Shown here piece by piece: positions 30,082-60,182 of a stretch of 64,000 nucleotides of DNA. Each line of letters opens with the position of its first letter. The first letter of the stretch is position 1. A model generated the notes under the pieces. That model ran no database searches and was not told where the DNA came from. It saw nothing but the letters and a program-made list of their open reading frames with translations. The DNA is taken from assembly GCA_964016885.1 (NCBI GenBank), contig OZ024741.1:216876001-216940000 (forward strand). The letters are read 5' to 3'. This DNA is from Eledone cirrhosa. Its lineage: Eukaryota. Both the position numbers and the translations under genes were made by a program.

Positions 30082-30216
30082 ATGTTGATAGATAAACCCA
30101 TTGTCGTCCAGATTTATGCCAGGATTTTTATAATGGTGATAATGGTGGAGTTTCTATTGACTTCAGTCGTAGAACCTGAAGAAAACATAAGGTCAAACGT
30201 GAGCAACCTTTGTAAA
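30082..30216 (+). CDS. Putative coding exon 1 of the giant mucin-like gene (signal-peptide-like)
   Basis: MLIDKPIVVQIYARIFIMVIMVEFLLTSVVEPEENIRSNVSNLCK, then GTAAGT donor at 30217, phase 0, matching exon 2. Start uncertain (alternative ATG at 30133). Confidence 0.5.
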
Positions 30217-30259
30217 GTAAGTACAAATTACTATTTTGATCTAGTGTTTATATTGATCT

Positions 30260-31885
30260 AGGTAGCCAAATGGTAAAATCGTTGGGGCGCCGGATTAAAT
30301 GTCATGGCCTTTCTTCCTACTGTCTGTGTTCTCAGTTCAAATCCCACCGAGGTCACCTTTGTTTTTCAACCTTTCGGAATCGATAAATTAAAAAAACCTG
30401 TCATGGGGCCACAGATTGGCGTAATTGTTGAAACTTCGACTTGAGTTCTAATCCCGTCGAGATCAGCTTTCGTGGAATGGGGGTGTAGTCGATAAATAAA
30501 GTGCATGTCCACTCCAGAAGTGGTGGATTGGCGGGGCTATTAAAAAGTCAAACGAGAGGTTTCGTAGTATTTGATTTGGCTCAGTGCCTTCTAAGTTCAA
30601 ATCCTGACTCCATCTGTCTTGAGTCGCGACAAACAGATATTATCAGCAATGGAGAAACCAGTGGATACATGGTTTCATTTCATTTATATTCAAATAGCCA
30701 CACATGTTCTATTTTAGAATTTAACACGGCTCCATTCCTTCTCAAATAACAAGCGAGATTTACAATATTTTCATGAAAACCTATCATTTCGGGACTTGAA
30801 TATATTTGAAATCTGTTTTGTTTTTCGTAAATATCGAAGAAAGAGCAGAGTTGATTACATCTACCCCAGTACTTAACTGGTATTATATTTTATCGATCGC
30901 AGAAGAATGAAAAACAAAATTAATCTCGGCAGGATTTGAACTCAGAATATAAAGAACCAGAAGAAATACAGCAGGGGCATATTAAAAGCATAAAAAATAT
31001 ACTTCTTTGTTATTAAAGGTTATTACTAACTCCCTAAAATATTAAATAGTTGGTTAAGGTAGGCTTGATCATATGAATAGATCGGTCGATTGGCAGAATA
31101 GTTAGGGCTGAGGTTAGGGTTAATCGGATAAAATTATTTGCAGTATTTGTTTCGACTCGTTAAGTTCAGAGTTAAAATCTAGCCATGGTCGTATTTTCCT
31201 TTCAATCCATCCGGCGTCGATAAAATAAAATGCTGGTCAAGTCTGGTCTTCACTAGTCTTTCCCCTTACTAATTGCTGAGGGGACCATGAACAAAATAAC
31301 CATGATAATAGAACCACAATAGAACCACTATATGATATTGTGTGCCCATATATCCATAATTCTTATCTGGAAAAAAGTGACAGTAATGAGCCCCGAATCT
31401 TCGTCCGTCTATTACTAGGTAGTTGGCTACTGAGCCACAGCTCATCTGGCTTCATCATAAGGATGAAGTCGTTGGCAACTTGAAAGGTGACTAATGGTTC
31501 CCATTTATCCCGGTTTTGAAATCAGAGTGATCCTTCTTCTAGACAGACGGCCATCCAAGGCTAACAAGCTGTCTACCCGTCGAGTACTAGGGTCAACATA
31601 ATCAAATTCTCCCTTCTCCTTAATTGCTGGCCTTGTGTCAAAAATAGAATCCAATATTATTACAGTGGATTGACAGTATCGGTGGAGCGTCGGTCACCAT
31701 GCTTTACGGCATAGAGTTACAGTCCTTTACGTTCTGATTTCAAATCCCGCCGAGGTTATCTTTGCCTTTCTTCATCCTTACGGGATCGATAAAATTAAGT
31801 ACCAGTTACGCACTGGGGTCAATTTAATCAACATTCTCCTCCCACAAAATTGTTGACCTTGTGCTTAAATCAGAAACCATTATTA
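30260..31885. mobile_element. Several diverged SINE family A copies in both orientations
   Basis: GTTCAAATCC..GAGGT..CTTT motifs near 30335, 31165 and 31740; reverse copy at about 30860-30975. Confidence 0.7.
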
Positions 31886-32357: not shown

Positions 32358-32416
<59 letters not shown>

Positions 32417-32545
32417 GATATAAGTGTCGTGGGAAAGGAGGAAATAGAGAGATACAGAGAAGTGCGATACAGATTACTAAAGATGTAAGATTTATATAAA
32501 AAACTTGTTTTAATGGCTTGTAACTCCTTTATTCGTTCATTTGCT

Positions 32546-32616
<71 letters not shown>

Positions 32617-33214: not shown

Positions 33215-33908
33215 TTATATAGAAATCACATGAATCAAAGTTATGTTCAAACCATTTATTAGCTTACAATTGTTTCGTCCAAACCGAGGTTTGGAGTCTT
33301 CGGAGCAATTTTTCAATGATTGTTTACATACATGACCTCCTTTCCAACACAAGAGACATACAGAAACATATGTATATATCGATGCACAGTGGGGTGACAT
33401 CCATTATAATATTTTAGCATGGCAATTTACATTCAAAATAAAATCATATTAAAAGAAAATTAAAACAAAATTAAAGTTAAAATACATCTGCAGTTTACGA
33501 AGTTAATGCAAGAGGATAGTTTGAAGTAGTTAGTGTATGCAATAGTTACACGTGGGGCATGCACGTGTGTCTTATTTATATAAGATTATTATGCGGTAAG
33601 GTGTTATATGCAATACAAGCACTTTAACTTCGTAAACTGCAGATGTTGTATTTTAACTTTAATTTTGTTTTAATTTTCTTTTAATATGATTTTAATTTTT
33701 GAATGTAAATTGCCATGCTAAAATATTATAATGGATGTCACCCCACTGTGCATCGATATATACATATGTTTCTGTATATCTCTTGTGCTGGAAAGGAGGT
33801 CATGTATGTAAACAATCATTGAAAAATTGCTCCGAAGACTCCAAACCTCGGTTTGGGCGAAACAATTGTAAGCTAATAAATGGTTTGAACAGAACTTTGA
33901 TTCATGTG

Positions 33909-33920
<12 letters not shown>
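33215..33920. mobile_element. Fold-back element, about 290-bp inverted arms each with a hammerhead-like motif
   Basis: 33215-33506 is the reverse complement of 33624-33918; GCT-CCGAAGA-C-TCCAAAC-CTCG-GTTTGGG-C-GAA-ACAATTGT-A-AGC at 33829-33873. Confidence 0.85.
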
Positions 33921-33973
<53 letters not shown>

Positions 33974-34173: not shown

Positions 34174-34218
<45 letters not shown>

Positions 34219-34665: not shown

Positions 34666-34802
34666 ACAGTATTTCCTGTATTTGGGATGCCTACATATTC
34701 TAAAAAACAATTTCATATTACTCAGAGCTTGAATAGTTTATTTGGAATGTTGATGTTGTTGTTGTTGGCCCTTTTTTCTCATTAATGTTTTTTTTATTTC
34801 AG

Positions 34803-35091
34803 ATATTTTCCTATGACACTTTGTTGTCAAGAAATGTTTCTATAATCTATTCAAAGAAAATGGACAACTTAACGTCATATTTTCATATAATAAACCCTAC
34901 CAGTTCCAGTGTAGACTTGTATATCTGTCATTTGTCCGACGGGATTGAGCCAGTGACACGAGAATGTCGGTTAAGAAGAAAGCTACACCAAACACAAGTG
35001 GTCACTAATTCCTCAACTTTGATGGTTACAGCAAAACTCCCAAAAGACATCAGCTGTTCGCCTTGTGTCTTACTGTGGGTCCTCAAACAAT
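34803..35091 (+). CDS. Coding exon 2: degenerate AA15 LPMO-like (chitin-binding type-4 fold) domain
   Basis: Acceptor TTTTTTTATTTCAG, donor GTAAGT at 35092, 289 bp (phase 0 to phase 1); LYICHL..VTREC..LPKDISCSPCVLLW resembles the AA15 pattern FRLC..TQEC..LP.GLTC.QCVLQW. Confidence 0.75.
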
Positions 35092-35502: not shown

Positions 35503-35529
<27 letters not shown>

Positions 35530-35540
<11 letters not shown>

Positions 35541-36185
35541 CATGCACACATATATATATGTACGTATGGATTCACCGAACATTTATTATAATGCTCGGTG
35601 TGTTTGTAAACAAACATCCCGCATTAAGCCGTAGTGTCTAGCAACCATCGTTGCTCGTTTGTTCAACACTGACAAAGGAACGCTGTACTAGTTTCAAGCT
35701 TATTAGCTATGGTCAGCAACGTATACCTTCCTGCCAGATTGTTGAACGTATATACTTACCTTATGCATATTAACGGCTGAGTAGCCCAATTTGCATATCG
35801 AGTGGGTTAATCGGCCGGGTGCACTGAAAAGGATAAACGGAAAAGATGAAACGAAATTTCATTTCCCACTCTTAGTACGGCTGTTACTTAAATATAAGTA
35901 CGTACACCCACTCGATGTGCAAATTGGGCTACTCAGCCGTTAATATGCATAAGGTAAGTATATACGTTCAACAATCTGGCAGGAAGGTATACGTTGCTGA
36001 CCATAGCTAATAAGCTTGAAACTAGTACAGCGTTTCTTTGTCATTGTTGAACAAACGAGCAACGATGGTTGCTGGACACTACGGCTTAATGCGGGATGTT
36101 TGTTTACAAACACACCGAGCATTATAATAAATGTTCGGTGAATCCATACGTACATATATATATGTGTGCATGTATGTATATATAT
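35530..36185. mobile_element. Fold-back element, about 280-bp arms with a variant hammerhead motif; loop duplicates 35395-35469
   Basis: 35530-35807 is the reverse complement of 35906-36185; CGTTG-CTGACCA-TAGCTAATAAGCTT-GAA-ACTAGT-A-CAGCG at 35992-36032. Confidence 0.85.
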
Positions 36186-36236
36186 ATATACATACTACTG
36201 AACGTCTGTATACATATATGTATGTACGTGTACGTA

Positions 36237-36985: not shown

Positions 36986-37059
<74 letters not shown>

Positions 37060-37064
<5 letters not shown>

Positions 37065-37370
37065 TAATAAGAGGAATTCCAACTTTGTCTGATTTACTCG
37101 TTTTATTTACAATCCTTTAAAATTTATAATGGTATTATAATGACTTGACTGTCACCACATATTATGAACCTGAAGATTGCGAAAGCATGAAAGTACTTGT
37201 TCAATTAACACTTAGAATTTAATATTCTATCATACACTTTGTAGCACAACTACTGCTACAGATTGTCCAACAAGATATTGCATTTGCAGCGGCAACAGGT
37301 CACCATTTGTAGAAGGATTGTAAATAAAACGAGTAAATCAGACAAAGTTGGAATTCCTCTTATTAATATA
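37060..37370. mobile_element. Fold-back element with perfect 58-bp arms, an internal hammerhead and a captured host exon fragment
   Basis: 37060-37117 is the exact reverse complement of 37313-37370; 37235-37316 matches 38014-38095 at 81/82. Confidence 0.9.
37165..37203 (+). ncRNA. Canonical minimal type I hammerhead ribozyme motif
   Basis: TGAAC-CTGAAGA-T-TGC-GAAA-GCA-T-GAA-AGTACT-T-GTTCA: 5-bp stem I, GNRA-capped stem II, palindromic stem III, CUU cleavage triplet. Confidence 0.8.
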
Positions 37371-37408
37371 ATCTTCTATACACAATCATACACACCCGTG
37401 TATATTTA

Positions 37409-37583: not shown

Positions 37584-37671
37584 TGGATGTGGCGCATGTC
37601 TATCGGACATGACACCCTTAATTTAATTTGGGATATATATATATATATATTGATATATCTATCTACTGCAG

Positions 37672-40600
37672 CGTCGGAAGACAAGGTTGGTTGTTCAAAT
37701 GTTCCTGAATTCCACACTCATGATATAGTGAACAGAATTAATAAGAGCCACGCAAGGAAGATGGATCCTGAGACGGGATCTTTCGGGCAGTCGGTAACGA
37801 TATCCACCATGAGATGCACTTCAAATAAAGCCTTTGTTAATATTACTGGCGTTGATGATTTCTGTGAGAGTCAATGTCGACTTGGAAAATGTCACCGTCA
37901 ATGGTGCTCATGTAAAGCAACAACAACAACAACAGGAGAGAGAAAACATAGTTTTAAATGTAGGGTAAGAAAACCTTACGAAAATATCGAGGATCTCTTG
38001 ACATGGTGCTACGCACTTTGTAGCACAACTACTGCTACAGATTGTCCAACAAGATATTGCATTTGCAGCGGCCACAGGTCACCATTTGTAGAAGGCACAA
38101 CAGCAGCAACAACAACAAAAACAACAGTAGATCCAATGGAAGAACCGGAAGAGATAAAAGAAATTATTTGTAGAGTGAGTAGAGCCTACCAAAAGATTCA
38201 AGGGTTGTTAAAATGGTGTTATCGTTTATGTAAGGGATGGTATTGTCCCCGGTCTCATTGTGTATGCAGCGTCGTCTCAGACACTACCCCAGTACCGACA
38301 CCGGCTCTAAGATGCAAGGTGACAAAGGCATTCAAAAGACTCCCTGGTGTGTTGAGTTGGTGTTATGTGATATGCAAAAGGGGCTTTTGCCCGAAATCTT
38401 ACTGCATTTGTAAGAGATCTCTCACGCCACCGCCAACAACGCCCAAAATGGAACTCAGATGCACAGTCAAGAGAAGGTTCCGAGCGATTCGTAGTATGAT
38501 GTATTGGTGTCTTACGAACTGCCCACTGGGTAACTGTCCACAGACACACTGCGAGTGTGCGATGGTTAAAGTGACGTCACTAACAACAACAGCAAGACCT
38601 ACAACAACGAGGCAAATAATAAGAAGAACAAGGATAATAACGAGAATAATAACGCAAATTATTCGCTTCACAATAATAAGGACCCAGCCAACGAGACCTG
38701 GAACAACCATTGAACCACGAACTACTAGGAGAGTACGTAGGAGGAGAATCATAACCAGAATCATAACGATTATAATTAGGTTTACGAGAATAGTGAGACG
38801 AACGACTAAGGCTATCACAACACCAAAGACGACAATAGATAATAAAACAACTGGAACAAGAAAGTCAACAACAACACCAAAAACAAAACCAACAACAAAA
38901 CCAGCAACAACATCAAATACAACTCTAGCAACAACACCAACAACACCGACAACAACACCAACAACAACACCAACTACAACACCAACAACAACACCAAAAA
39001 CAACACCAACAACAACACCAAAAACAACACCAACAACAACACCAACAACAACAACAACACCAACAGCAACAACAACACCAACAACAACACCAACAACAAC
39101 ACCAACTACAACACCAACAACAACACCAACTACAACACCAACTACAACAGCAACCACCACACCAACAACAACACCAACAACAACACCAACTACAACACCA
39201 ACAACAACACCAACTACAACAACAACAACAACAACTACAACAGCAACCACCACACTAACTACAACACCAACAACAACACCAACAACAACACCAACAACAA
39301 CACCAACTACAACACCAACAACAACACCAACTACAAAACTAACTACAACACCAACAACAACACCAACAACAACACCAACTACAACACCAGCCACCACACC
39401 AACAACAACAAAAGCAGCAACACCAACTACAACACCAACTACAACACCAACAACAACACCAACAACAAAACCAACTACAACACCAACCACCACACCAACT
39501 ACAACACCAACTACAACACCAACTACAACACCAACCACCACACCAACTACAATACCAACAACAACACCAACAACAACACCAACAACAACACCAACAACAA
39601 CACCAACTACAACAACACCAACAACAACACCAACAACAACACCAACTACAACACCAACTACAACAACACCAACAACAACACCAACAACAACACCAACTAC
39701 AACACCAACTACAACAACACCAACAACAACACCAACAACAACACCAACTACAACAACACCAACAACAACACCAACAACAACACCAACTACAACACCAACT
39801 ACAACAACACCAACAACAACACCAACAACAACACCAACGACAACACCAACTACAACACCAACAACAACACCAACAACAACACCAACTACAACACCAACTA
39901 CAACAACACCAACAAAAACACCAACAACAACACCAACTACAACACCAACTACAACACCAACAACAACACCAACTACAACACCAACTACAACACCGACTAC
40001 AACACCAACAACAACACCAACAACAACACCAACTACAACACCAACAACAACACCAACAACAACACCAACAACAACACCAACTACAACACCAACAACACCA
40101 ACTACAACACCAACTACAACAACACCAACAAAAACACCAACAACAACACCGACTACAACACCAACAACAACACCCACACCAACAACAACACCAACAACAA
40201 CACCAACAACAACACCAACAACAACACCAACAACAACACTAACAACAACACCAACAACAACACCAACTACAACACCAACAACAACACCAACTACAACGCC
40301 AACAACAACACCAACAACAACACCAACAACAACACCAACTACAACACCAACCACCACACCAACAACAACACCAACAACAACACCAACAACAAAAGCAACA
40401 ACAAAAGCAACTACAACACCAACTACAACACCAACCACCACACCAACAACAACACCAACTACAACACCAACAACAACACCAACAACAAAAGCAACTACAA
40501 CACCAACTACAACACCAACCACCACACCAACAACAACACCAACTACAACACCAACAACAACACCAACTACAACACCAACCACCACACCAACTACAACACC

Positions 40601-43600
40601 AACCACCACACTAACTACAACGCAGACAACAACACCAACTACAACACCAACTGCACTACCAACAACAACACCAACAACAACACCAACAACAACACCAACA
40701 ACAACACCAACTACAACACCAACCACCACACCAACTACAACACCAACCACCACACTAACTACAACGCAGACAACAACACCAACTACAACACCAACAACAC
40801 CAACTACAACACCAATAACAACACCAACAACAAAACCAACTACAACACCAACTACAACACCAACCACCACACCAACAACAACACCAACTACAACACCAAC
40901 AACAACACCAACTACAACACCAACCACCACACCAACTACAACACCAACCACCACACTAACTACAACGCAGACAACAACACCAACTACAACAACAACTACA
41001 ACACTAACAACATCACCAACTACAACACCAACAACAACACCAACCACCACACCAACAACAACACCAACTACAACGCCAACTACAACACCAACTACAACAC
41101 CAACTACAACACCAACAACAACACCAACAACAACACCAACTACAACACCAACTACAACACTAACAACATCACCAACTACAACACCAACAACAACACCAAC
41201 CACCACACCAACAACAACACCAACTACAACACCAACTACAACACCAACTACAACACCAACTACAACACCAACAACAACACCAACAACAACACCAACTACA
41301 ACACCAACTACAACACTAACAACAACACCAACTACAACACTAACAACATCACCAACAACAACACCAACTACAACACCAACTACAACGCCAACTACAACAC
41401 CAACTACAACACCAACTACAACACCAACAACAACACTAACAACATCACCAACAACAACACCAACTACAACGCCAACAACAACACCAACAACAACACCAAC
41501 CACCACACCAACTACAACACCAACTACAACACCAACAACAACACCAACTACAACGCCAACTACAACACCAACAACAACACCAAATACAACACCAACCACA
41601 ACACCAACTACAACACCAACAACAACACCAACAACAACACCAACTACAACACCAACTACAACGCCAACTACAACACCAACAACAACACCAACTACAACAC
41701 CAACTACAACGCCAACCACCACACCAACTACAACACCAACTACAACAACACCTACAACAACACCAACAACAACACCAACAACAACACCAACTACAACACC
41801 AACTACAACACCAACAACGACACCAACTACAACACCAACTACAACCGCAACCACCACACCAACAACAACACCAACTACAACGCCAACCACCACACCAACT
41901 ACAACACCAACTACAACAACACCAACTACAACACCAACAACAACACCAACAACAACACCAACTACAACAATGACCACCACACCAACAACACCAACTACAA
42001 CACCAACTACAACACTAACAACATCACCAACTACACCACCAACAACAACACCAACCACCACACCAACAACAACACCAACAACAACACCAACCACCACACC
42101 AACAACAACACCAACAACAACACCAACTACAACACCAACAACAACACCAACTACAACACCAACAACAACACCAACAACAACACCAACAACAACACCAACA
42201 ACAACACCAACTACAACACCAACTACAACACTAACAACATCACCAACTACAACACCAACAACAACACCAACTACAACACTAACAACATCACCAACAACAA
42301 CACCAACTACAACACCGACTACAACGCCAACTACAACAGCAACTACAACACCAACTACAACACCAACAACAACACTAACAACATCACCAACAACAACACC
42401 AACTACAACACCAACTACAACGCCAACTACAACGCCAACTACAACACCAACTACAACACCAACTACAACACCAACTACAACACCAACTACTACACCATCA
42501 ACAACACCAACTACAACACCAACAATAACGCCAACTACAACACCAACTACAACACCAACAACAACACCAACTACAACACCAACTACAACACCAACAATAA
42601 CGCCAACTACAACACCAACTACAACACCAACAACAACACCAACAACAACACCAACTACAACACCAACAACAACACCAACCACCACACAAACAACAACACC
42701 ATCAATACTAACAACAACACCAACTACAACACCAACCACCACACCAACTACAACACCAACCACCACACCGACAACAACACCAACTACAACACCATCCACC
42801 ACACCAACTACAACACCAACCACCACACCAACTACAACGCAAACAACAACACCAACTACAACACCAACAACAACACCAACTACAACACCAACAACAACAC
42901 CAACAACAACACAAACAACAACACCAACTACAACACCAACAACATCACCAACAACAACAACAACAACACCAACAACAACACCAACAACAACACCAACTAC
43001 AACACTAACTACAACACCAACAACAACACCAACAACAACACCAACAACAACACCAACAACAACACCAACAACAACACCAACTATAACACCAACAACAACA
43101 CCAACTACAACACCAACAACAACACCAACAACAACACCAACAACAACACCAACTACAACACCAACAACAACACCAACTACAACACCAACTACAACAATGA
43201 CCACCACACCAACAACACCAACTACAACACCAACTACAACACTAACAACATCACCAACTACACCACCAACAACAACACCAACCACCACACCAACAACAAC
43301 ACCAACAACAACACCAACTACAACACCAACTACAACACCAACAACAACACCAACAACAACACCAACTACAACACCAACAACAACACCAACAACAACACCA
43401 ACTACAACAATGACCACCACACCAACAACACCAACTACAACACCAACTACAACACTAACAACATCACCAACTACACCACCAACAACAACACCAACCACCA
43501 CACCAACAACAACACCAACTACAACGCCAACAACAACACCAACAACAACACCAACTACAACACTAACTACAACACCAACAACAACACCAACAACAACACC

Positions 43601-46600
43601 AACAACAACACCAACAACAACACCAACAACAACACCAACAACAACACCAACTACAACACCAACAACAACACCAACAACAACACCAACAACAACACCAACA
43701 ACAACACCAACAACAACACCAACAACAACACCAACAACAACACCAACTACAACACCAACAACAACACCAACAACAACACCAACAACAACACCAACAACAA
43801 CACCAACAACAACACCAACAACAACACCAACAACAACACCAACAACAACACCAACTACAACACCAACTACAACACTAACAACATCACCAACTACAACACC
43901 AACAACAACACCAACTACAACACTAACAACATCACCAACAACAACACCAACTACAACACCAACTACAACGCCAACTACAACAGCAACTACAACACCAACT
44001 ACAACACCAACAACAACACTAACAACATCACCAACAACAACACCAACTACAACACCAACTACAACGCCAACTACAACGCCAACTACAACACCAACTACAA
44101 CGCCAACAACAACACCAACTACAACACCAACTACAACACCAACTACTACACCATCAACAACACCAACTACAACACCAACAATAACGCCAACTACAACACC
44201 AACTACAACACCAACAACAACACCAACTACAACACCAACTACAACACCAACAATAACGCCAACTACAACACCAACTACAACACCAACAACAACACCAACA
44301 ACAACACCAACTACAACACCAACAACAACACCAACCACCACACAAACAACAACACCATCAATACTAACTACAACACCAACTACAACACCAACAACAACAC
44401 CAACTACAACACCAACCACCACACCAACTACAACACCAACCACCACACCGACAACAACACCAACTACAACACCATCCACCACACCAACTACAACACCAAC
44501 CACCACACCAACTACAACGCAAACAACAACACCAACTACAACACCAACAACAACACCAACTACAGCACTAACAACAACACCAACAACAACACCAACAACA
44601 ACACCAACTACAACACCAACAACATCACCAACAACAACAACAACAACACCAACAACAACACCAACAACAACAGCAACTACAACACTAACTACAACACCAA
44701 CAACAACACCAACAACAACACCAACAAGAACACCAACAACAACACCAACAACAACACCAACAACAACACCAACTACAACACCAACAACAACACCAACTAC
44801 AACACCAACAACAACACCAACAACAACACTAACAACATCACCAACAACAACACCAACTACAACACCAACTACAACGCCAACTACAACGCCAACTACAACA
44901 CCAACTACAACGCCAACAACAACACCAACTACAACACCAACTACAACACCAACTACTACACCATCAACAACACCAACTACAACACCAACAATAACGCCAA
45001 CTACAACACCAACTACAACACCAACAACAACACCAACTACAACACCAACTACAACACCAATAATAACGCCAACTACAACACCAACTACAACACCAACAAC
45101 AACACCAACAACAACACCAACTACAACACCAACAACAACACCAACCACCACACAAACAACAACACCATCAATACTAACTACAACACCAACTACAACACCA
45201 ACAACAACACCAACTACAACACCAACCACCACACCAACTACAACATCAACCACCACACCGACAACAACACCAACTACAACACCATCCACCACACCAACTA
45301 CAACACCAACCACCACACCAACTACAACGCAAACAACAACACCAACTACAACACAAACAACAACACCAACTACAACACCAACAACAACACCAACAACAAC
45401 ACCAACAACAACACCAACTACAACACCAACAACATCACCAACGGCAACAACAACAACACCAACAACAACACCAACAACAACACCAACTACAACACCAACT
45501 ACAACACCAACCACCACACCAACAATACCAACTACAACACCAACAACAACACCAACTACAACACCAACAACAACACCAACTACAACACCAACCACCACAC
45601 CAACAATACCAACTACAACACCAACAACAACACCAACTACAACACCAACTACAACACCAACTACAACGCCAACAACAACACCAACAACACCAACTACAAC
45701 ACCAACAAAACCAACTACAACACCAACAACAACACCAACTACAACACCAACAACAACACCAACTACAACACCAACTACAACACCAACTACAACACCAAGT
45801 ACAACACCAACAACAAAAGCAACTACAAAGCCAACAACAACACCAACTACAACACCAACAACAACACCAACAACACCAACTACAACACCAACAACAACAC
45901 CAACAACAACACCAACCACCACACCAACTACAACACCAACAACAACACCAACTACAACACCAACTACAACACCAACAACAACACCAACTACAACACCAAC
46001 TACAACACCAACAACAACTCCAACTACAACACCAACTACAACACCAACTACAACACCAACAACAACACCAACTACAACACCAACTACAACACCAACAACA
46101 ACTCCAACAACAAAACCAACTACAACACCAACTACAACTTCAGCAACAACACCAACTACAACACCTACTACAACACCAACCACCACACCAGCAACAACAC
46201 CAACAACAACACCAACTACAACAGCAACAACACCAACTACAACACCAACTACAACACCAACTACACCACCAACAACAACACCAACTACAACACCAACAAT
46301 AACACCAACTACAACACCAACCACCTCACCAACAACAACAACACCAACTACAACACCAACTACAACTCCAACAACAACACCAACTACAACACCAACTACA
46401 ACACCAACAACAACACCAACAACAACACCAACTACAACACCAACAACAACAACACCAACAACAACACCAACTACAACACCAACAACAACACCAACTACAA
46501 CACCAACAACAACACCAACTACAACACCAACAACAACACCAACTACAACACCAACAACAACACCAACCACCACACCAACTACAACACCAACTACAACACC

Positions 46601-49600
46601 AACTACAACACCAACAACAACACCAACAACACCAACTACAACACCAACCACCACACCAACAACAACACCAACTACAACACCAACTACACCACCAACTACA
46701 ACACCAACTACAACACCAACTACACCACCAACTACAACACCAACAACACCAACTACAACACCAACCACCACACCAACAACACCAACACCAACAACAACAC
46801 CAACAACAACACCAACTACAACACCAACAACACCAACTACAACACCAACAACCACACCAACAACACCAACAACAACACCAACAACAACACCAACTACAAC
46901 ACCAACTACAACACCAACAACAACAGCAACAACAACACCAACAACAACACCTACTACAACACCAACAACACCAACTACAACACCAACCACCACACCAACA
47001 ACACCAACTACAACACCAACTACAACACTAACAACATCACCAACTACAACACCAACTACAACACCAACTACAACACCAACAACAACACCAACTACAACGC
47101 CAACTACAACACCAACTACAACACCAACTACAACACCAACTACAACACCAACAACAACGCCAACTACAACACCAACTACAGCACCAACAACAACACCAAC
47201 AACAACACCAACTACAACGCCAACTACAACACCGACTACAACACCAACTACAACACCAACTACAACACCAACAACAACACCAACTACAACACCAACCACC
47301 ACACCAACAACACCAACTACAACACCAACTACAACACCAACTACACCACCAACAACAACACCAACTACAATACCAACAACAACACCAACTACAACACCAA
47401 CAACAACACCAACTACAACACCAACTACAACACCAACAACAACACCAACAACACCAACAACAACACCAACTACAACACCAACTACAACACCAACAACAAC
47501 ACCAACAACACCAACTACAACACCAACTACAACACCAACTACACCACCAACAACAACTCCAACTACAACACCAACAACAACACCAACACCAACTACAACA
47601 CCAACAACAACACCAACTACAACACCAACTACAACACCAACTACAACACCAACAACAACACCAACTACAACACCAACTACAACACCAACAACAACAACAA
47701 CACCAACTACAACACCAACAACAACACCAACTACAACACCAACAACAACGCCAACTACAATACCAACTACAAATCCAACTACAACACCAACAACTAATCC
47801 AACTACAACCCCAACAACAACACTAACAACATCACCAACTACAACACCAACAACAACACCAACTACAACGCCAACTACAACACCAACTACAACACCAACT
47901 ACAACACCAACTACAACACCAACTACAACACCAACAACAACGCCAACTACAACACCAACTACAGCACCAACAACAACACCAACAACAACACCAACTACAA
48001 CGCCAACTACAACACCGACTACAACACCAACTACAACACCAACTACAACACCAACATCAACACCAACAACAACACCAACAACAACACCAACTACACCACC
48101 AACAACAACACCAACAACAACACCAACAACAACACCAACTACAACACCAGCTACAACACCAACTACAACACCAACAACAACACCAACTACAACACCAACT
48201 ACAACACCAACAACAACTCCAACAACAAAACCAACTACAACACCAACTACAACTTCAACAACAACACCAACTACAACACCTACTACAACACCAACCACCA
48301 CACCAGCAACAACACCAACAACAACACCAACTACAACACCAACAACACCAACTACAACACCAACTACAACACCAACTACACCACCAACAACAACACCAAC
48401 TACAACACCAACAATAACACCAACTACAACACCAACCACCTCACCAACAACAACAACACCAACTACAACACCAACTACAACTCCAACAACAACACCAACT
48501 ACAACACCAACTACAACACCAACAACAACACCAACAACAACACCAACTACAACACCAACAACAACACCAACAACAACACCAACTACAACACCAACAACAA
48601 CACCAACTACAACACCAACAACAACACCAACTACAACACCAACAACAACACCAACTACAACACCAACAACAACACCAACCACCACACCAACTACAACACC
48701 AACTACAACACCAACTACAACACCAACAACAACACCAACAACACCAACTACAACACCAACCACCACACCAACAACAACACCAACTACAACACCAACTACA
48801 CCACCAACTACAACACCAACTACAACACCAACTACACCACCAACTACAACACCAACAACACCAACTACAACACCAACCACCACACCAACAACACCAACAC
48901 CAACAACAACACCAACAACAACACCAACTACAACACCAACAACACCAACTACAACACCAACCACCACACCAACAACACCAACAACAACACCAACAACAAC
49001 ACCAACTACAACACCAACTACAACACCAACAACAACACCAACAACAACACCAACAACAACACCTACTACAACACCAACAACACCAACTACAACACCAACC
49101 ACCACACCAACAACACCAACTACAACACCAACTACAACACTAACAACATCACCAACTACAACACCAATAACAACACCAACCACCACACCAACAACAACAC
49201 CAACTACAACGCCAACTACAACACCAACTACAACACCAACTACAACACCAACTACAACACCAACAACAACACCAACTACAACGCCAACTACAACACCAAC
49301 TACAACACCAACTACAACACCAACTACAACACCAACAACAACGCCAACTACAACACCAACTACAGCACTAACAACAACACCAACAACAACACCAACTACA
49401 ACGCCAACTACAACACCGACTACAACACCAACTACAACACCAACTACAACACCAACAACAACACCAACTACAACACCAACCACCACACCAACAACACCAA
49501 CTACAACACCAACTACAACACCAACTACACCACCAACAACAACACCAACTACAATACCAACAACAACACCAACTACAACACCAACAACAACACCAACTAC

Positions 49601-52600
49601 AACACCAACTACAACACCAACAACAACACCAACAACACCAACAACAACACCAACTACAACACCAACTACAACACCAACAACAACACCAACAACACCAACT
49701 ACAACACCAACTACAACACCAACTACACCACCAACAACAACTCCAACTACAACACCAACAACAACACCAACAACAACACCAACTACAACACCAACAACAA
49801 CACCAATTACAACACCAACTACAACACCAACAACAACTCCAACTACAACACCAACTACAACACCAACTACAACACCAACAACAACACCAACTACAACACC
49901 AACTACAACACCAACAACAACAACAACACCAACTACAACACCAACAACAACACCAACTACAACACCAACCACCACACCAACAACAACAACACCAACTACA
50001 ACACCAACTACAACTCCAACAACAACACCAACTACAACACCAACTACAACACCAACAACAACACCAACAACAACACCAACAACAACACCAACTACAACAC
50101 CAACTACAACACCAACAACAACACCAACTACAACACCAACAACAACACCAACAACAACACCAACTACAACACCAACAACAACACCAACTACAACACCAAC
50201 TACAACACCAACAACAACACCAACAACAACACCAACAACAACACCAACAACAACACCAACTACAACACCAACAACACCAACTACAACACCAACTACAACA
50301 CCAACAACACCAACTACAACACCAACCACCACACCAACAACACCAACACCAACAACAACACCAACAACAACACCAACTACAACACCAACAACACCAACTA
50401 CAACACCAACCACCACACCAACAACACCAACTACAACACCAACTACAACACTAACAACATCACCAACAACAACACCAACTACAACGCCAACTACAACACC
50501 AACTACAAATCCAACTACAACACCAACAACAAATCCAACTACAACCTCAACAACAACACTAACAACATCACCAACTACAACACCAACAACAACACCAACT
50601 ACAACGCCAACTACAACACCAACTACAACACCAACTACAACACCAACTACAACACCAACTACAACACCAACAACAACGCCAACTACAACATCAACTACAG
50701 CACCAACAACAACACCAACAACAACACCAACTACAACGCCAACTACAACACCGACTACAACACCAACTACAACACCAACTACAACACCAACATCAACACC
50801 AACAACAACACCAACAACAACACCAACTACACCACCAACAACAACACCAACAACAACACCAACAACAACACCAACTACAACACCAACTACAACACCAACA
50901 ACAACACCAACTACAACACCAACAACAACACCAACTACAACACCAACCACCACACCAACAACACCAACTACAACACCAACTACAACACCAACTACACCAC
51001 CAACAACAACACCAACTACAATACCAACAACAACACCAACTACAACACCAACAACAACACCAACTACAACACCAACTACAACACCAACAACAACACCAAC
51101 AACACCAACAACAACACCAACTACAACACCAACTACAACACCAACAACAACACCAACAACACCAACTACAACACCAACTACAACACCAACTACAACACCA
51201 ACAACAACTCCAACTACAACACCAACAACAACACCAACAACAACACCAACTACAACACCAACAACAACACCAACTACAACACCAACTACAACACCAACAA
51301 CAACTCCAACTACAACACCAACTACAACACCAACTACAACACCAACAACAACACCAACTACAACACCAACTACAACACCAACAACAACAACAACACCAAC
51401 TACAACACCAACAACAACACCAACTACAACACCAACCACCACACCAACAACAACAACACCAACTACAACACCAACTACAACTCCAACAACAACACCAACT
51501 ACAACACCAACTACAACACCAACAACAACACCAACAACAACACCAACAACAACACCAACTACAACACCAACTACAACACCAACAACAACACCAACTACAA
51601 CACCAACAACAACACCAACAACAACACCAACTACAACACCAACTACAACACCAACAACAACACCAACAACAACACCAACAACAACACCAACAACAACACC
51701 AACTACAACACCAACAACACCAACTACAACACCAACTACAACACCAACAACACCAACTACAACACCAACCACCACACCAACAACACCAACACCAACGACA
51801 ACACCAACAACAACACCAACTACAACACCAACAACACCAACTACAACACCAACCACCACACCAACAACACCAACTACAACACCAACTACAACACTAACAA
51901 CATCACCAACAACAACACCAACTACAACGCCAACTACAACACCAACTACAAATCCAACTACAACACCAACAACAAATCCAACTACAACCTCAACAACAAC
52001 ACTAACAACATCACCAACTACAACACCAACAACAACACCAACTACAACGCCAACTACAACACCAACTACAACACCAACTACAACACCAACTACAACACCA
52101 ACTACAACACCAACAACAACGGCAACTACAACATCAACTACAGCACCAACAACAACACCAACAACAACACCAACTACAACGCCAACTACAACACCGACTA
52201 CAACACCAACTACAACACGAACTACAACACCAACATCAACACCAACAACAACACCAACAACAACACCAACTATACCACCAACAACAACACCAACAACAAC
52301 ACCAACAACAACACCAACTACAACACCAACTACAACACCAACAACAACACCAACAACAACACCAACAACAACACCAACTACAACACCAACAACACCAACT
52401 ACAACACCAACCACCACACCAACAACACCAACTACAACACCAACTACAACACCAACTACACCACCAACAACAACTCCAACTACAACACCAACAACAACAC
52501 CAACTACAACACCAACAACAACACCAACTACAACACCAACTACAACACCAACAACAACACCAACTACAACACCAACTACAACACCAACAACAACTCCAAC

Positions 52601-55600
52601 TACAACACCAACTACAACACCAACTACAACACCAATAACAACACCAACTACAACACCAACAACAACACCAACTACAACACCAACAACAACACCAACTACA
52701 ACACCAACAACAACTCCAACTACAACACCAACTACAACACCAACTACAACACTAACAACATCACCAACTACAACAGCAACAACAACACCAACTACAACAC
52801 CAACTACAACACCAACAACAACTCCAACAACAAAACCAACTGCAACACCAACTACAACACCAACAACACCAACTACAACTTCAACAACAACACCAACTAC
52901 AACACCAACTACAACACCAATCACCACACCAACAACAACACCAACAACAACACCAACTACAACACCAACAACACCAACTACAACACCAACTACAACACCA
53001 ACTACACCACCAACAACAACACCTACTACAATACCAACAACAACACCAACTACAACACCAACTACAACACCAACTACACCACCAACAACAACACCAACTA
53101 CAATACCAACAACAACACCAACTACAATACCAACAACAACACCAACTACAACACCAACAACAACACCAACAACAACATCAACTACAACACCAACAACAAC
53201 ACCAACCACCACACAAACAACAACACCATCAATCCTAACTACAACACCAACTACAACACCAACAACAACACCAACCACCACACCAACTACAACACCAACC
53301 ACCACACCAACAACAACACCAACTACAACACCAACCACCACACCAACTACAACACCAACCACCACACCAACTACCACGCAAACAACAACACCAAGTACAA
53401 CACCAACAACAACACCAACTACAACACCGACAACACCAACTACAACACCAACACAAAAACCAACAACAACACCAACAACACCAACTACAACACCAACAAC
53501 ATCACCAACAACAACAACAACAACACCAACAACAACACCAACAACAACACCAACTACAACACCAACTACAACACCAACCACCACACCAACAATACCAACT
53601 ACAACACCAACTACAACACCAACAACAACACCAACAACAACACCAACTACAACGCCAACAACAACACCAACTCCAACACCAACTACAACACCAACAACAA
53701 CACCAACTACAACACCAACTACAACGCCAACTACAACACCAACAACACCAACTACAACACCAACTACAACACCAACTACAACGCCAACAACAACACCAAC
53801 AACACCAACAACAACACCAACAACACCAACAACAACACCAACTACAACGCCAACAACAGCACCAACTACAACAACAACACCAACTACAACACCAACTACA
53901 ACACCAACTACAACACCAACTACAACACCAACAACAAAAGCAACTACAACGCCAACAACAACACCAACTACAACACCAACTACAACGCCAACAACAACAC
54001 CAACTACAACACCAACAACACCAACTACAACACCAACAACAACACCAACAACAACACCAACTACAACACCAACAACAACACCAACTACAACACCAACTAC
54101 AACACCAACAACAACTCCAACTACAACACCAACTACAACACCAACTACAACACCAACAACAACACCAACTACAACACCAACTACAACACCAACAACAACA
54201 CCAACAACAACACCAACTACAACACCAACTACAACACCAACTACAACACCAACAACAACACCAACTACAACACCAACTACAACACCTACAACACCAACTA
54301 CAACACCAACAACAACACCAACTACAACACCAACTACAACACCAACAACAACTCCAACTACAACACCAACTACAACACCAACTACAACACCAACAACAAC
54401 ACCAACAACAACTACAACTTCAACAACAACACCAACTACAACACCAACTACGACACCAACCACCACACCAACAACAACACCAACAACAACACCAACTACA
54501 ACACCAACAACACCAACTACAACACCAACCACCACACCAACAACACCAACTACAACACCAACTACAACACCAACTACACCACCAACAACAACTCCAACTA
54601 CAACACCAACAACAACACCAACTACAACACCAACTACAACACCAACAACAACACCAACTACAACACCAACTACAACACCAACAACAACTCCAACTACAAC
54701 ACCAACTACAACACCAACTACAACACCAACAACAACACCAACTACAACACCAACTACAACACCAACAACAACACCAACAACAACACCAACAACAACACCA
54801 ACAACAACACCATCAACAACACCAACTACAACACCAACAACAACACCAACTACAACACCAACCACCACACCAACAACAACAATACCAACTACAACACCAA
54901 CTACAACTCCAACTACAACACCAACCACCACACCAACAACAACAATACCAACTACAACACCAACTACAACACCAACAACAACACCAACTACAACACCAAC
55001 CACCACACCAACAACAACAATACCAACTACAACACCAACTACAACTCCAACTACAACACCAACCACCACACCAACAACAACAATACCAACTACAACACCA
55101 ACTACAACACCAACAACAACACCAACTACAACACCAACCACCACACCAACAACAACAATACCAACTACAACACCAACAACAACACCAACAACAACACCAA
55201 CTACAACACCAACCACCACACCAACAACAACAATACCAACTACAACACCAACAACAACACCAACAACAACACCAACAACACCACCAACAACAACAACACC
55301 AACAACTCCAACAACAACACCAACAACAACACCAACAACAACACCAACAACAACACCAACAACAACACCAACAACAACACCAACTACAACACCAACAACA
55401 ACACCAACAACAACACCAACTGCAACACCAACAACAACACCAACTACAACACCAACTACAACACCAACAACAACACCAACAACAACACCAACTACAACAC
55501 CAACTACAACACCAACAACAACACCAACAACAACACCAACAACAACACCAACAACAACACCAACAACAACACCAACTACAACACCAACAACAACACCAAC

Positions 55601-58600
55601 AACAACACCAACTACAACACCAACTACAACACCAACAACAACACCAACAACAACACCAACAACAACTCCAACTACAACACCAACTACAACACCAACAACA
55701 ACACCAACTACAACACCAACAACAACTCCAACTACAACACCAACAACAACACCAACAACAACACCAACTACAACACCAACAACAACTCCAACAACAAAAC
55801 CAACAACAACACCAACTACAACACCAACAACAACACCAACAACAACACCAACTACAACACCAACTACAACACCAACAACAACACCAACAACAACACCAAC
55901 AACAACACCAACAACAACACCAACAACAACACCAACTACAACACCAACAACAACACCAACAACAACACCAACTACAACACCAACAACAACACCAACTACA
56001 ACACCAACTACAACACCAACAACAACACCAACAACAACACCAACAACAACTCCAACTACAACACCAACTACAACACCAACAACAACACCAACTACAACAC
56101 CAACAACAACTCCAACTACAACACCAACAACAACACCAACAACAACACCAACTACAACACCAACAACAACTCCAACAACAACACCAACAACAACACCAAC
56201 TACAACACCAACAACAACTCCAACAACAACACCAACAACAACACCAACAACAACTCCAACTACAACACCAACAACAACACCAACAACAACACCAACTACA
56301 ACACCAACAACAACTCCAACAACAAAACCAACTACAACACCAACTACAACTTCAACAACAACACCAACTACAACACCAACTACAACACCAACAACAACAC
56401 CAACTACAACACCAACAACACTAACTACAACACCAACCACCACACCAACAACAACACCAACAACAACACCAACTACAACACCAACAACACCAACTACAAC
56501 ACCAACTACAACACCAACTACACCAACAACAACACCAACTACAATACCAACAACAACACCAACTACAACACCAACAACAACACCAACAACACCAACTACA
56601 ACACCAACCACCACACCAACAACACCAACTACAACACCAACTACAACACCAACTACACCACCAACAACAACTCCAACTACAACACCAACAACAACACCAA
56701 CTACAACACCAACTACAACACCAACAACAACACCAACTACAACACCAACTACAACACCAACAACAACTCCAACTACAACACCAACTACAACACCAACTAC
56801 AACACCAACAACAACACCAACAACAACACCAACTACAACACCAACAACAACACCAACAACAACACCCACAACAACACCAACAACAACACCATCAACAACA
56901 CCAACTACAACACCAACAACAACACCAACTACAACACCAACCACCACAACAACAACAACAACACCAACTACAACACCAACTACAACTCAAACAACAACAC
57001 CAACTACAACACCAACAACAACACCAACAACAACACCAACAACAACACCAACAACAACACCAACAACAACACCAACTACAACACCAACAACAACACCAAC
57101 AACAACACCAACTACAACACCAACAACAACACCAACTACAACACCAACAACAACACCAACAACAACACCAACAACAACACCAACTACAACACCAACAACA
57201 CCAACCACCACACCAACAACAACACCAACAACAACACCAACTACAACACCAACTACAACACCAACAACAACACCAACAACAACACCAACAACAACACCAA
57301 CTACAACACCAACTAAAACACCAACAACAACACCAACTACAACACCAACGACAACACCAACAACAACACCAACAACAACACCAACTACCACACCAACAAC
57401 AACACCAACAACAACACCAACAACAACACCAACTACAACACCGACAACAACATCCTCTACCCTAACCACCCTATTTTGCATTACATATGCCCCTAGCTCT
57501 GACGCAGTAAGCTCCCCTGATTCAACTATGCTCCCACCATCTTCTACTTTATTTAGTGTCCCTTCCTCGTCTATTCCAAGAACAGGTACCACATATGTTT
57601 CTTCCCCTCAGCCCTCCACCTCAATATCTTCTCTCGTTAGTACAACCCTAGGTCTAACTCCATCCACCATCTCAGCGAACTCAATACTTACATCATTATT
57701 ATCGATATCCTCCACAACAAATCCCATCTCTTCTGCTTCTAGTACTCCAACCATGACCGTCTCTTCTGAATCTAGCACTGGTTTTACCACCACCACCCCC
57801 GCATCATCCACATTACCAACATCAGCACCATCAACACTAACGACATCCCCAACTACAGCAGCAACCACAACACCAACAGCTCCACAATCATCATCGCCAA
57901 CAACACCCACAACAACCCCAACCACCACACAAACGACCACACCAACCACCCCTCCAATCATTACTCCAACCACCCCTCCAGCCACCACACCAACCACCCC
58001 TCCAGTCACCACACCAACCACCCCTTCAGCCACCACACCAACCACACCTCCAGCCACCACACCAACCACCCCTCCAACCACCACACCAACCACCCCTCCA
58101 GCCACTACACCAACCACCCCTCCAGCCACCACACCAACCACCCCTCCAGCCACCACACCAACCACCCCTCCAACCACCACACCAACCACCCCTCCAACCA
58201 CCACACCAACCACCCCTCCAGCCACCACACCAACCACCCCTCCAGCCACCACACCAACCACCCCTCCAGCCACCACACCAACCACCCCTCCAGCCACTAC
58301 TCCAACCACCCCTCCAGCCACCATACCAACCACCACACCAACCACCACACTAACCACCCCTCCAGCCACCACACCAACCACCCCTCCAGCCACCACACCA
58401 ACCACCCCTCCAACCACCACACCAACCACCCCTCCAGCCACCACACCAACCACCCCTCCAACCACCACACCAACCACCCCTCCAGCCACCACACCAACCA
58501 CCCCTCCAGCCACCACACCAACCACCCCTCCAACCACCACACCAACCACCCCTCCAGCCACCACACCAACCACCCCTCCAGCCACCACACCAACCACCCC

Positions 58601-60182
58601 TCCAGCCACCACACCAACAATAACTACAACACTGATAACTACACCAATAGAGACAGTATCAACATCAACACCATCGACTACAAGAAACGCTACTACACCA
58701 CAAACAACACCAATAGCAACAACAACTACACCAGTAACAAGCACAATCCCACCAGTTTCCTCGCTATTCTCTTCCCCTCTAGCAATGTTTTCTCCATCAC
58801 TTCCTTTTGAACATTTCACTAGTTTACCATATTTCACAATAGTAAACCTTTCTGACGGCTTCACTCTCTATTGCTACACAAATACCTCCAGGGCTGCTAC
58901 TGAGCCCTCCACCCAAGCTCAAACTGCAACAGAGACCACACAGCCCGTCACCTCAGAAGTTGATCAGACAACCGAAGACACTTTTACGTCTGTTGTAACT
59001 CCTCTGTTGACCACATCCACAAAGCCACAAACAACACCAACAACACCTCTAACAACAGACACAACTCTACTGACCACACCAACAACACCTTTAACCTCAC
59101 TCACAACACCTTTGACCACACCCACATCACATCAAGCCACACAAACAACTCCTCTAACCACACCCTCAACCCCATTGACAACACTCACAACACCTTTGAC
59201 CACACCAACAACACCTTTGACCACACTCACAACACCTTTGACCACACCCACAACACCTTTGACCACACCTACATCACCTCAAGCCACACAAACAACTCCT
59301 CTGACCACACTTTCAACCCCAATGACCACACTCACAACACCTTTGACCACACGAACAACACCTTTGACCACACTCACAACACCAACAATAACACCAACAA
59401 CAACACCAACAACAACACCCACCAAAACACCAACAACAACACCAACAACAACACCAACAACAACAACACCAACCACCACACCAACAACAATACCAACAAC
59501 AACACCAACAACAACACCTACCACAACACCCACCACAACACCAACAATAACACCAACTACAACACCAACAACAACACCCACCAAAACACCAACAACAACA
59601 CCAACAACAACACCAACAACAACACCAACCACCACACCAACAACAATACCAACAACAACACCAACAACAACACCTACCACAACACCCACCACAACACCAA
59701 CAATAACACCAACTACAACACCAACAACAACACCCACCAAAACACCAACAACAACACCAACAACAACACCAACAACAACACCAACCACCACACCAACAAC
59801 AATACCAACAACAACACCAACAACAACACCTACCACAACACCCACCACAACACCAACTACAACACCAACAACCTCACCCACCACAACACCAACAACAGCA
59901 CCAACAACAACACCTACCACACCAACAACACCAACAACAACACCAACAACCTCACCCACCACAACACCAACAACAGCACCAACAACAACACCTACCACAC
60001 CAACAACACCAACAACAACACCAACAACGTCACCACCAACAACAACAACACCAACAACCTCACTACCACCAACAACAACAACAACACCAACAACATCGAC
60101 TGTCTTAACTACACCAGCAGATGTCAGCACTGTTGTACATCCTCCTACCTCCAATATTTCAATGTTTGGTGCAAGTTCGTAA
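37672..60182 (+). CDS. Giant coding exon 3 (22.5 kb): end of LPMO-like domain, five 6-Cys modules, Arg/Ile motif, Pro-Thr mucin stalk
   Basis: Acceptor TCTACTGCAG ending at 37671 in phase 1, matching exon 2; frame open to TAA at 60180; variant repeat units preserve the frame. Confidence 0.85.
38860..57450 (+). repeat. Coding 12-bp tandem array (CCAACWACAACA = PTTT) with higher-order repeats
   Basis: Directly visible; followed by a 21-bp TTPTTPP(A) array (about 57950-58620) and TTPL and PTTT arrays to about 60090. Confidence 0.95.

What the first reader, a model, noticed from the sequence alone, without database searches (positions are those of the whole stretch)
30082..60182. Giant secreted mucin built on a catalytically dead LPMO-like head
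Seen: three phase-compatible exons (0/0, 1/1) join into about 7,640 aa. The head reads LYIC..TREC..LPKDISCSPCVLLW..KVGCSNV, followed by five 6-Cys modules and over 6,000 residues of PTTT; no transmembrane segment, vWD or cystine knot is visible. Known: AA15 LPMOs have LP..L.C..CVLQW..F.GCAD(V/I) and need an N-terminal His-brace; from recall, molluscan ones carry similar C-terminal 6-Cys modules after a Thr-rich linker. Inference: an LPMO paralogue that lost its copper ligands and became a chitin-anchored glycoprotein brush (gut lining, skin, sucker or egg covering), a mucin architecture I do not recognise.
Basis: partly seen in the sequence, partly recalled or inferred. Interest (0 to 1): 0.85.

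Follow-up and report, generated by a model that had tools for sequence, protein, structure and literature searches.

The report
Octopod mucin with disarmed LPMO head
An octopus-type genome holds a predicted 7,600-residue threonine-rich protein whose front end is a cut-down relative of chitin-cleaving copper enzymes lacking the copper site, and which likely works as a mucus-type glycoprotein anchored to chitin.

Summary
Observation confirmed. An Argonauta protein supports exon 2 and the second junction; exon 1 and the 3' end are less sure (the stop lies inside a donor-like GTAAG). There is no RNA evidence. The head is AA15-related by sequence: a profile of histidine-less heads hits only TdAA15A in the PDB (E 2e-4), and hhalign gives 95.9%. 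It has lost more than ligands: His1, His91, the axial aromatic and most of the substrate face are gone, and no missed exon was found in the window. The fold search returned only generic Ig-like matches. Shorter histidine-less relatives exist in Octopus, Argonauta and a nemertean. The modules resemble the insect LPMO15-1 repeat, and half of their carriers show AA15 or GH18 motifs. Most likely a non-catalytic, chitin-anchored mucin: the logic of insect intestinal mucin, built from different parts. Binding, tissue and expression are untested.

The parts
30082..30216 (+). Exon 1 (aa 1-45): start codon, hydrophobic leader (aa 7-26, likely signal peptide) and first head cysteine (C44)
   Evidence: GTAAGT donor, phase 0; best of 16 ATG-led candidates and the cysteine lines up with relatives; no BLAST alignment to P0006, so least secure exon
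34803..35091 (+). Exon 2 (aa 46-141): core of the histidine-less AA15-like beta-sandwich; Thr78 stands at the His91 position
   Evidence: 49% identity to Argonauta P0006 over 100 aa; only AA15-HMM hit in the window, E 1e-4; alignment
37672..60182 (+). Exon 3 (aa 142-7644 plus stop), one 22.5-kb open frame
   Evidence: 37667-38092 and 38133-38860 matched without a differing letter by contigs of runs X1 and X2
37672..37706 (+). Last strand of the head; Lys146 stands at the axial Phe/Tyr position, C149 conserved
   Evidence: alignment with AA15 proteins; P0006 continues across this junction
37815..38558 (+). Five 6-Cys modules (37815-37913, 37959-38066, 38169-38267, 38313-38411, 38460-38558), spacing C-X15-C-X3-C-X4(7)-C-X4-C-X-C; net charge +1, 0, +7, +7, +4
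   Evidence: modules 3-5 fold as strand-helix-strand units, mean pLDDT 86.6
38595..38822 (+). Arg/Ile/Thr-rich segment (aa 450-525; 21 Arg, 20 Ile, net +21) with two R-X-R-R sites
   Evidence: similar segment in unnamed relative P0004, where those R-X-R-R sites are not kept
38940..57452 (+). PTTT array (aa 565-6735), 72% Thr, with 0.1-8.7 kb higher-order duplications
57453..60179 (+). Ser/Thr/Pro tail: Ser-rich linker, 24-bp repeat (57918-58618), unique stretch, further PT repeats; two lone cysteines (C6744, C7209)
60183..60590 (+). Unresolved region behind the stop: same-frame S/T/P-like sequence with 5 stops in 51 codons, then a stop-free PSTP repeat; the stop overlaps a donor-like GTAAG

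Best explanation
This is an octopod gene model for a likely secreted 7,644-residue mucin-type glycoprotein whose head is a shortened AA15-related domain without the copper site, and whose five 6-Cys modules likely anchor it to chitin. Shown: the open frame, the loss of His1, His91 and the axial aromatic, and the module type. Inferred steps: (1) an ancestral 'AA15 + linker + 6-Cys modules' gene lost the N-terminal third and the active-site loops of the catalytic domain, giving a small histidine-less family; (2) one paralogue gained modules, a cationic Arg/Ile/Thr segment and a very long PTTT array; (3) after secretion the array is O-glycosylated into an extended, hydrated brush, held at its N-terminal end on a chitinous surface by the modules, with the cationic segment adding adhesion to anionic glycans; (4) the head serves as a disulfide-held structural cap, not an enzyme and probably not the chitin binder. 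The result would be a lubricating or protective coat on a chitinous lining, as insect intestinal mucins provide; the tissue is not known.
For: Open frame under coding constraint. Argonauta GAB1603675.1 has the same head and modules, a leader ending in A-E-A, and a tail that looks like an off-frame reading of a similar repeat. A profile of five histidine-less heads, with no AA15 in it, hits 1 of 177,635 PDB sequences, TdAA15A 5msz, E 2.3e-4; hhalign against ten AA15 proteins 95.9%; reciprocal HMM and shuffle control; ESM Atlas leads to LPMO_10 clusters at 0.86-0.88, below the tool's 0.9 mark. Ligand positions replaced or deleted; the N-terminal AA15 HMM finds nothing in the window (best E 2.2). 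Of 82 proteins found with the module region, 33 carry an AA15 C-terminal motif and 8 a GH18 motif by regular expression; Pfam names 10 LPMO_10 and 2 GH18 among them. Insect LPMO15-1 enzymes of cuticle turnover carry a near-identical cysteine spacing (PMC9156745).
Against: [quoted passage not shown] 32 of 82 module carriers show no enzyme motif. Structure searches returned generic Ig-like folds and no LPMO among the listed rows. Pfam and NCBIfam name nothing in the head. Modules 3-4 are more cationic than nearly all enzyme-borne ones (+6 or more in 1 of 85 AA15-borne and 0 of 19 GH18-borne), hinting at another ligand. Exon 1 and the 3' end are unverified. The Argonauta mucin tail is inferred from composition only.
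Confidence: 0.55

Rival explanations
1. It is a glue or gel mucoprotein (for example egg cement or skin mucus) that sets by charge: the Arg/Ile/Thr segment and the cationic modules complex with sulfated polysaccharide and self-associate, and chitin plays no part.
For: Net +21 segment rich in beta-branched residues, also present in P0004; cationic modules 3-5; octopus eggs are coated with O-glycosylated mucoprotein plus a sulfonated mucopolysaccharide (PMC8976471, passages).
Against: No expression data tie the gene to that gland; modules 1-2 are near neutral and the tryptophan before the second cysteine is kept in 4 of 5 modules, as in enzyme-borne modules.
Confidence: 0.2
2. It is a barrier mucin with built-in antimicrobial units: the cationic modules are defensin-like, and they or the Arg-rich segment are released by a furin-type cut or act in place.
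For: G-X-C and C-X3-C ... C-X-C pattern; the only PDB sequence hit of the module profile was a weak one to scorpine (E 0.32); R-X-R-R sites at aa 495 and 497.
Against: That hit is not significant; the module model finds no defensin in PDB searches (small chains may be missed); the sites are not kept in P0004; relatives sit mostly on chitin-active enzymes.
Confidence: 0.1
3. The gene does not end at 60182: the GTAAG over the stop is a real donor and further exons, or a frame error near the stop, add a membrane anchor or a polymerising domain, making it a tethered or more conventional mucin.
For: Only 12 of 264 TAA in nearby non-coding DNA lie in a GTAAG context; the next frame behind the stop is open for 135 codons and holds a 19-mer of hydropathy 2.46; the N-terminal leader has no clear cleavage motif in this species.
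Against: No acceptor in the window returns cleanly to the S/T/P frame; the sequence behind the stop keeps the main-frame codon pattern (position 2 is C in 82% of the PSTP repeat), as a decayed former tail would.
Confidence: 0.2
4. The head is an independent Ig-like domain that only shares a C-X2-C-V-L-X-W motif with AA15; 'dead LPMO' is then the wrong history.
For: Fold searches list Ig, CopC-like and NEAT domains, not LPMOs; no Pfam LPMO_10 hit; the tree has no root and long branches.
Against: The match spans about 80 columns and four cysteines in register, with two more cysteines lining up outside it; the same modules follow both kinds of head.
Confidence: 0.1

Closest known systems
AA15 LPMOs (TdAA15A, PDB 5msz; PMC5823890, passages)
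   Same: C-terminal beta-sandwich core with cysteines in register; secreted; C-terminal extensions common in the family
   Different: No His1, His91 or axial Tyr/Phe; about 120 aa against about 190; N-terminal region and the loop before the last strand deleted; 7,000-aa Thr/Pro tail
Insect group I LPMO15-1 (PMC9156745, passages)
   Same: AA15-type domain followed by 6-Cys repeats C-X15-C-X3-C-Xn-C-X4-C-X-C
   Different: Active enzymes with two repeats and n = 6-9; here five repeats, n = 4 in four and 7 in one; homology to the insect repeats not tested by alignment
Molluscan and annelid AA15 proteins with the same modules (e.g. Paralvinella KAK2167115.1, Haliotis XP_046579468.1, Nucella KAL8602230.1)
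   Same: Same module and Thr-rich linkers; likely ancestral architecture
   Different: They keep the N-terminal histidine motif (10 full-length proteins) and are 338-757 aa long
Insect intestinal mucin / peritrophin mucins (HaIIM86, PMC3065741, abstract)
   Same: Working logic: several cysteine-rich chitin anchors plus an O-glycosylated mucin domain on a chitinous lining
   Different: Their anchors are CBM14-type (recalled; PMC9156745 states that the LPMO15-1 repeat is unrelated to CBM14); no LPMO-derived head; far smaller
Gel-forming mucins (MUC2/MUC5 type; recalled)
   Same: Very long PTTT-type array in one large exon
   Different: No vWD, C8, TIL or cystine-knot domain in the modelled frame (38 cysteines, 36 of them in head and modules)
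X473 module of Saprolegniales AA15/GH18/GH19 (PMC8393829, passages and supplement)
   Same: Six-cysteine module under 40 aa appended to AA15 and chitinases, putatively chitin-binding
   Different: Reported only in Saprolegniales; its sequence could not be seen, so homology is untested

Membership tests
AA15 LPMO | N-terminal His1 exposed after the signal peptide | tested here: not met
   No histidine before aa 73; N-terminal AA15 HMM and motifs find no candidate exon in the window; the Argonauta and Octopus relatives also lack it
AA15 LPMO | Second brace histidine (His91) | tested here: not met
   Thr78 in the window, Thr in P0006; the head's three histidines are not kept in P0006
AA15 LPMO | Axial Tyr/Phe before the last cysteine | tested here: not met
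   Lys146; the preceding loop is deleted
AA15 LPMO | Sequence homology to the catalytic core | tested here: met
   E 2.3e-4, sole PDB hit; 95.9%; 20.4 bits against 6.3 for shuffles; Pfam itself gives no hit
AA15 LPMO | LPMO fold | tested here: inconclusive
   Model of the Argonauta relative gives a beta-sandwich (10-residue pLDDT means 51-87 over aa 41-150); best matches are generic Ig-like chains, Z 7.6, rmsd 3.4, 91 aligned
AA15 LPMO | Copper binding and oxidative cleavage | not testable with these tools
   Needs assays
LPMO15-1-type 6-Cys repeat | C-X15-C-X3-C-X6-9-C-X4-C-X-C spacing | tested here: inconclusive
   Exact fit in 1 of 5 modules; the other 4 differ only in a third gap of 4, which is also the commonest form among relatives (164 of 226)
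Peritrophin / insect intestinal mucin | CBM14 (peritrophin-A) domains | tested here: not met
   No CBM_14 hit in Pfam for the module region or its 82 relatives
Peritrophin / insect intestinal mucin | Chitin binding and association with a chitinous matrix | not testable with these tools
   Inferred from module context only
Mucin (PTS-domain glycoprotein) | Long tandem Pro/Thr/Ser domain with a secretion leader | tested here: met
   5,157 Thr+Ser of 7,644 aa; hydrophobic leader aa 7-26; cleavage not predicted with a dedicated tool
Mucin (PTS-domain glycoprotein) | Dense O-glycosylation | not testable with these tools
   Expected from composition
Gel-forming mucin | vWD/C8/TIL assemblies and C-terminal cystine knot | tested here: inconclusive
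   Absent from the modelled frame, but the 3' end may not be final
X473 module | Match to the X473 HMM | not testable with these tools
   Sequences not available in text or supplement

The most novel reading that the evidence does not exclude
Octopods built a mucin class of their own from a chitin-degrading enzyme gene: an LPMO pseudo-enzyme cap, chitin-gripping 6-Cys modules and a cationic beta-prone Arg/Ile/Thr segment that sets the protein into a gel or glue without vWD or cystine-knot domains, coating renewable chitinous surfaces (sucker cuticle, foregut lining) or cementing eggs. The histidine-less head would define an undescribed domain family reaching at least to nemerteans.
Probability: 0.2. 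Interest if true: 0.75.

Novelty: new variant of a known kind. Interest (0 to 1): 0.5.

Why it matters
It points to a route from enzyme to structural material: an AA15 LPMO gene stripped of its copper site and turned into a giant mucin. It flags two unnamed domains that no Pfam or NCBIfam model covered here: a histidine-less half-size AA15 derivative, and a 6-Cys module that is widespread on invertebrate LPMOs and chitinases yet had no solved structure in the searches run. Both are small and easy to express, so the ligand of the module is directly testable. The full-length protein was not found in the protein collections searched (only 350- and 461-aa fragments of relatives), so such genes are probably under-annotated. 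The chitin-anchor-plus-mucin design itself is already known from insects, which caps the surprise.

Tried and rejected
No whole genome is held, so paralogues and exons beyond the window could not be sought. RNA: no RNA holder listed; the two holders X1 and X2 are one sample and behave as genomic DNA (contigs start inside intron 2), so they say nothing on junctions and may not be independent of the assembly. Single-sequence searches with exon 2 found nothing in Pfam, NCBIfam or the PDB. Foldseek and VIA searches with the 461-aa Argonauta model listed no LPMO among the rows shown; the model is long and of mean pLDDT 50.5, so this is no evidence of a different fold. The module model found no PDB match (best E 1.5, best Z 3.3). 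Word-based homologue searches found no 542-2000-aa relative and only P0004 and P0006 at 211-674 aa; longer proteins were not searched. The tree puts the five octopod heads on one side (88/83, not starred) with the nemertean joining by a long branch; it is unrooted and cannot show one origin or descent from AA15. Other reading frames of the array (Gln/His, Asn/Thr, antisense Val/Gly) were rejected: they hold stops and lack a linked head. My first splice attempt was one base off and was corrected. P0009 among the 82 hits is a spurious repeat protein. Ten paper searches listed no description of a histidine-less AA15-derived mucin or of this family; the library lacks most subscription papers. The supplement of the octopus skin-mucus proteome (PMC11431876) could not be read and might list a relative. 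The argonaut eggcase preprint mentions neither mucin nor LPMO. Earlier scan notes held nothing on this sequence or place.
Full report
Observation. Exons 30082-30216, 34803-35091 and 37672-60182 are bounded by GTAAGT donors and CAG acceptors in phases 0 and 1 and give 7,644 codons with no internal stop. The protein has a hydrophobic leader (aa 7-26, the most hydrophobic stretch), a head with six cysteines (aa ~31-153), five 6-Cys modules (aa 190-437), an Arg/Ile/Thr segment (aa 450-525, net +21), a PTTT array (aa 565-6735) and a Ser/Thr/Pro tail with two lone cysteines. The unglycosylated mass is 774 kDa with 5,157 Thr+Ser.

The array is coding. In the head's frame, codon position 2 is C in 97.9% of 6,171 codons; departures from the two modal codons are synonymous in 1,052 cases and single non-synonymous in 193 (repeat copies are not independent events); the other five frames carry 1 to 750 stops; 28 of 28 long internal duplications are offset by multiples of three. 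The exact copy number could be affected by assembly and was not checked. Contigs of runs X1 and X2 match 37667-38092 and 38133-38860 without a differing letter, but they are genomic and from one sample.

Gene model. A search of 1.84 billion representatives with the first 309 aa of exon 3 gave 82 hits. The closest with a head is Argonauta hians GAB1603675.1 (P0006): 49% identical to exon 2 and continuous across the exon 2/3 junction. It is itself a predicted protein, so this is support by conservation, not by transcript. Its tail is Asn/Thr/Tyr/His-rich, like the off-frame reading of the window's array, which suggests a similar repeat there (inference). An unnamed record, P0004, has five modules and a similar Arg/Ile/Thr segment. 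The organism is therefore an octopod (inference). Exon 1 is weaker: no BLAST alignment to P0006, but it is the best of 16 ATG-led candidates among 108 donor-like sites upstream, and its cysteine lines up with relatives. The 3' end is open: the stop lies within TTC|GTAAG, a context shown by 12 of 264 nearby non-coding TAA. Behind it the same frame goes on with 5 stops in 51 codons and then a stop-free PSTP repeat, as a decayed tail would; no acceptor in the window returns cleanly to that frame; the next frame is open for 135 codons and holds a hydrophobic 19-mer. The absence of a membrane anchor or cystine knot is thus conditional.

The head. Exon 2 alone finds nothing in Pfam, NCBIfam or the PDB. 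Histidine-less heads followed by the same modules occur in Argonauta (two genes with locus numbers 648500 and 648800, on contigs of the same length), Octopus sinensis, O. bimaculoides and the nemertean Lineus. A profile of five such heads, containing no AA15, hits one of 177,635 PDB sequences: TdAA15A, 5msz, E 2.3e-4. Against ten AA15 proteins hhalign gives 95.9% over 79 columns. An AA15 HMM picks only exon 2 in the six-frame window (E 1e-4, next 2.6) and scores it 20.4 bits against a best shuffle of 6.3 in 1,000. ESM Atlas gives LPMO_10 clusters at 0.86-0.88, leads only. AA15 activity needs His1 and His91, with Tyr184 or Phe axial (PMC5823890, passages). Here His91 aligns with Thr78 and the axial residue with Lys146; His1, most of the N-terminal region and the loop before the last strand are deleted. 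An HMM of the AA15 N-terminal part finds no exon in the window (best E 2.2), and the relatives lack it too. The head's three histidines are not kept in P0006. Against this reading: an AlphaFold model of P0006 built without AA15 rows gives a beta-sandwich of moderate confidence whose best matches are generic Ig-like chains (Z 7.6, rmsd 3.4, 91 aligned), with no LPMO among the listed rows. That fits a bare core but does not confirm it. The tree is unrooted and cannot fix the direction of change.

The modules. Their spacing is C-X15-C-X3-C-X4-C-X4-C-X-C (third gap 7 in module 2), the commonest form among relatives (164 of 226). Insect group I LPMO15-1 enzymes carry two repeats C-X15-C-X3-C-X6-9-C-X4-C-X-C, said to be unrelated to CBM14 (PMC9156745, passages). 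Of the 82 hits, 33 show an AA15 C-terminal motif, 8 a GH18 motif, 5 are histidine-less relatives or P0004, 32 have modules without an enzyme motif and 4 have no module by my pattern; Pfam confirms 10 LPMO_10 and 2 GH18. Modules 3-5 fold confidently as strand-helix-strand units (mean pLDDT 86.6) with no PDB match. Chitin binding is inferred from this company, not shown. Modules 3 and 4 are unusually cationic. Oomycete X473 is a similar-sized six-cysteine module on AA15 and chitinases (PMC8393829, passages and supplement); homology could not be tested.

Mechanism. Most likely (0.55) the protein is secreted, its array is O-glycosylated into a long hydrated brush, and its N-terminal modules hold it on a chitinous surface, with the cationic segment adding adhesion and the head acting as a structural cap. 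Rivals are a charge-set glue or mucus protein (0.2; octopus egg coating is mucoprotein plus sulfonated polysaccharide, PMC8976471, passages), an antimicrobial mucin (0.1), a longer tethered form (0.2, not exclusive of the others) and a head unrelated to AA15 (0.1).

Comparison and novelty. It works like an insect intestinal mucin, which combines chitin-binding domains with a mucin domain (PMC3065741, abstract), but it has no CBM14. It is not an AA15 member: three defining residues were tested and not met. It is not shown to be a gel-forming mucin. Ten paper searches listed no description of this architecture or of the histidine-less family. Other papers seen in passages without bearing on the claim: PMC11431876 (supplement unreadable), PMC4457423, PMC10154629 and bioRxiv 10.1101/2021.07.10.451900. 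Verdict: a real gene model, a new variant of a known kind, interest 0.5.

Noticed in passing
window 37235-37316 (intron 2) and 38014-38095 (exon 3): An 82-bp, 99% identical copy of the coding sequence of module 2 lies in intron 2, inside a ~360-bp element with 83-bp inverted ends (37035-37117 / 37313-37395) between TG and TA runs; it looks like a small DNA element that captured a piece of the host exon. A contig of run X2 shows the intron-side flank.
   Followed up: partly
window 60183-60590: CpG-rich, codon-structured sequence behind the stop: five stops in the main frame, then a PSTP repeat; the next frame is open for 135 codons with a hydrophobic 19-mer.
   Followed up: partly
window 11621-28821, minus strand: Three tandem copies of a LINE-type retrotransposon, 91% and 82% alike; the copy at 17654-21118 has an open endonuclease, reverse transcriptase and zinc-binding frame of 1,155 aa; the third copy is broken into pieces.
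   Followed up: partly
window 33216-33919 and 35519-36194: Long, 98% complementary inverted repeats (223 and 289 bp arms) in both introns, beside TA runs; likely non-autonomous DNA elements. A similar pair lies at 62345-63278.
   Followed up: no
window 5924-7353: A 1.4-kb GC-rich trinucleotide-type repeat region (CTA then TGG units) with open Val/Gly frames on the plus strand and Thr/Pro/His frames on the minus strand; not linked to the gene.
   Followed up: no
window 218-1660, minus strand: Fragments that read like a reverse transcriptase and a GIY-YIG-type endonuclease of a Penelope-like element (recalled resemblance); Pfam gave no hit for 977-1660.
   Followed up: partly
window 61251-61502: A 90-bp unit repeated 2.8 times at 99% identity, about 1 kb behind the stop.
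   Followed up: no
proteins P0056, P0065, P0074: Further AA15-like proteins with 6-Cys modules that lack the second brace histidine in the alignment (P0074 is from Potamilus); possibly independent losses of the copper site, or faulty gene models.
   Followed up: no
protein P0005: An unnamed 1,459-aa protein made of about 22 of the same 6-Cys modules with no enzyme domain.
   Followed up: no
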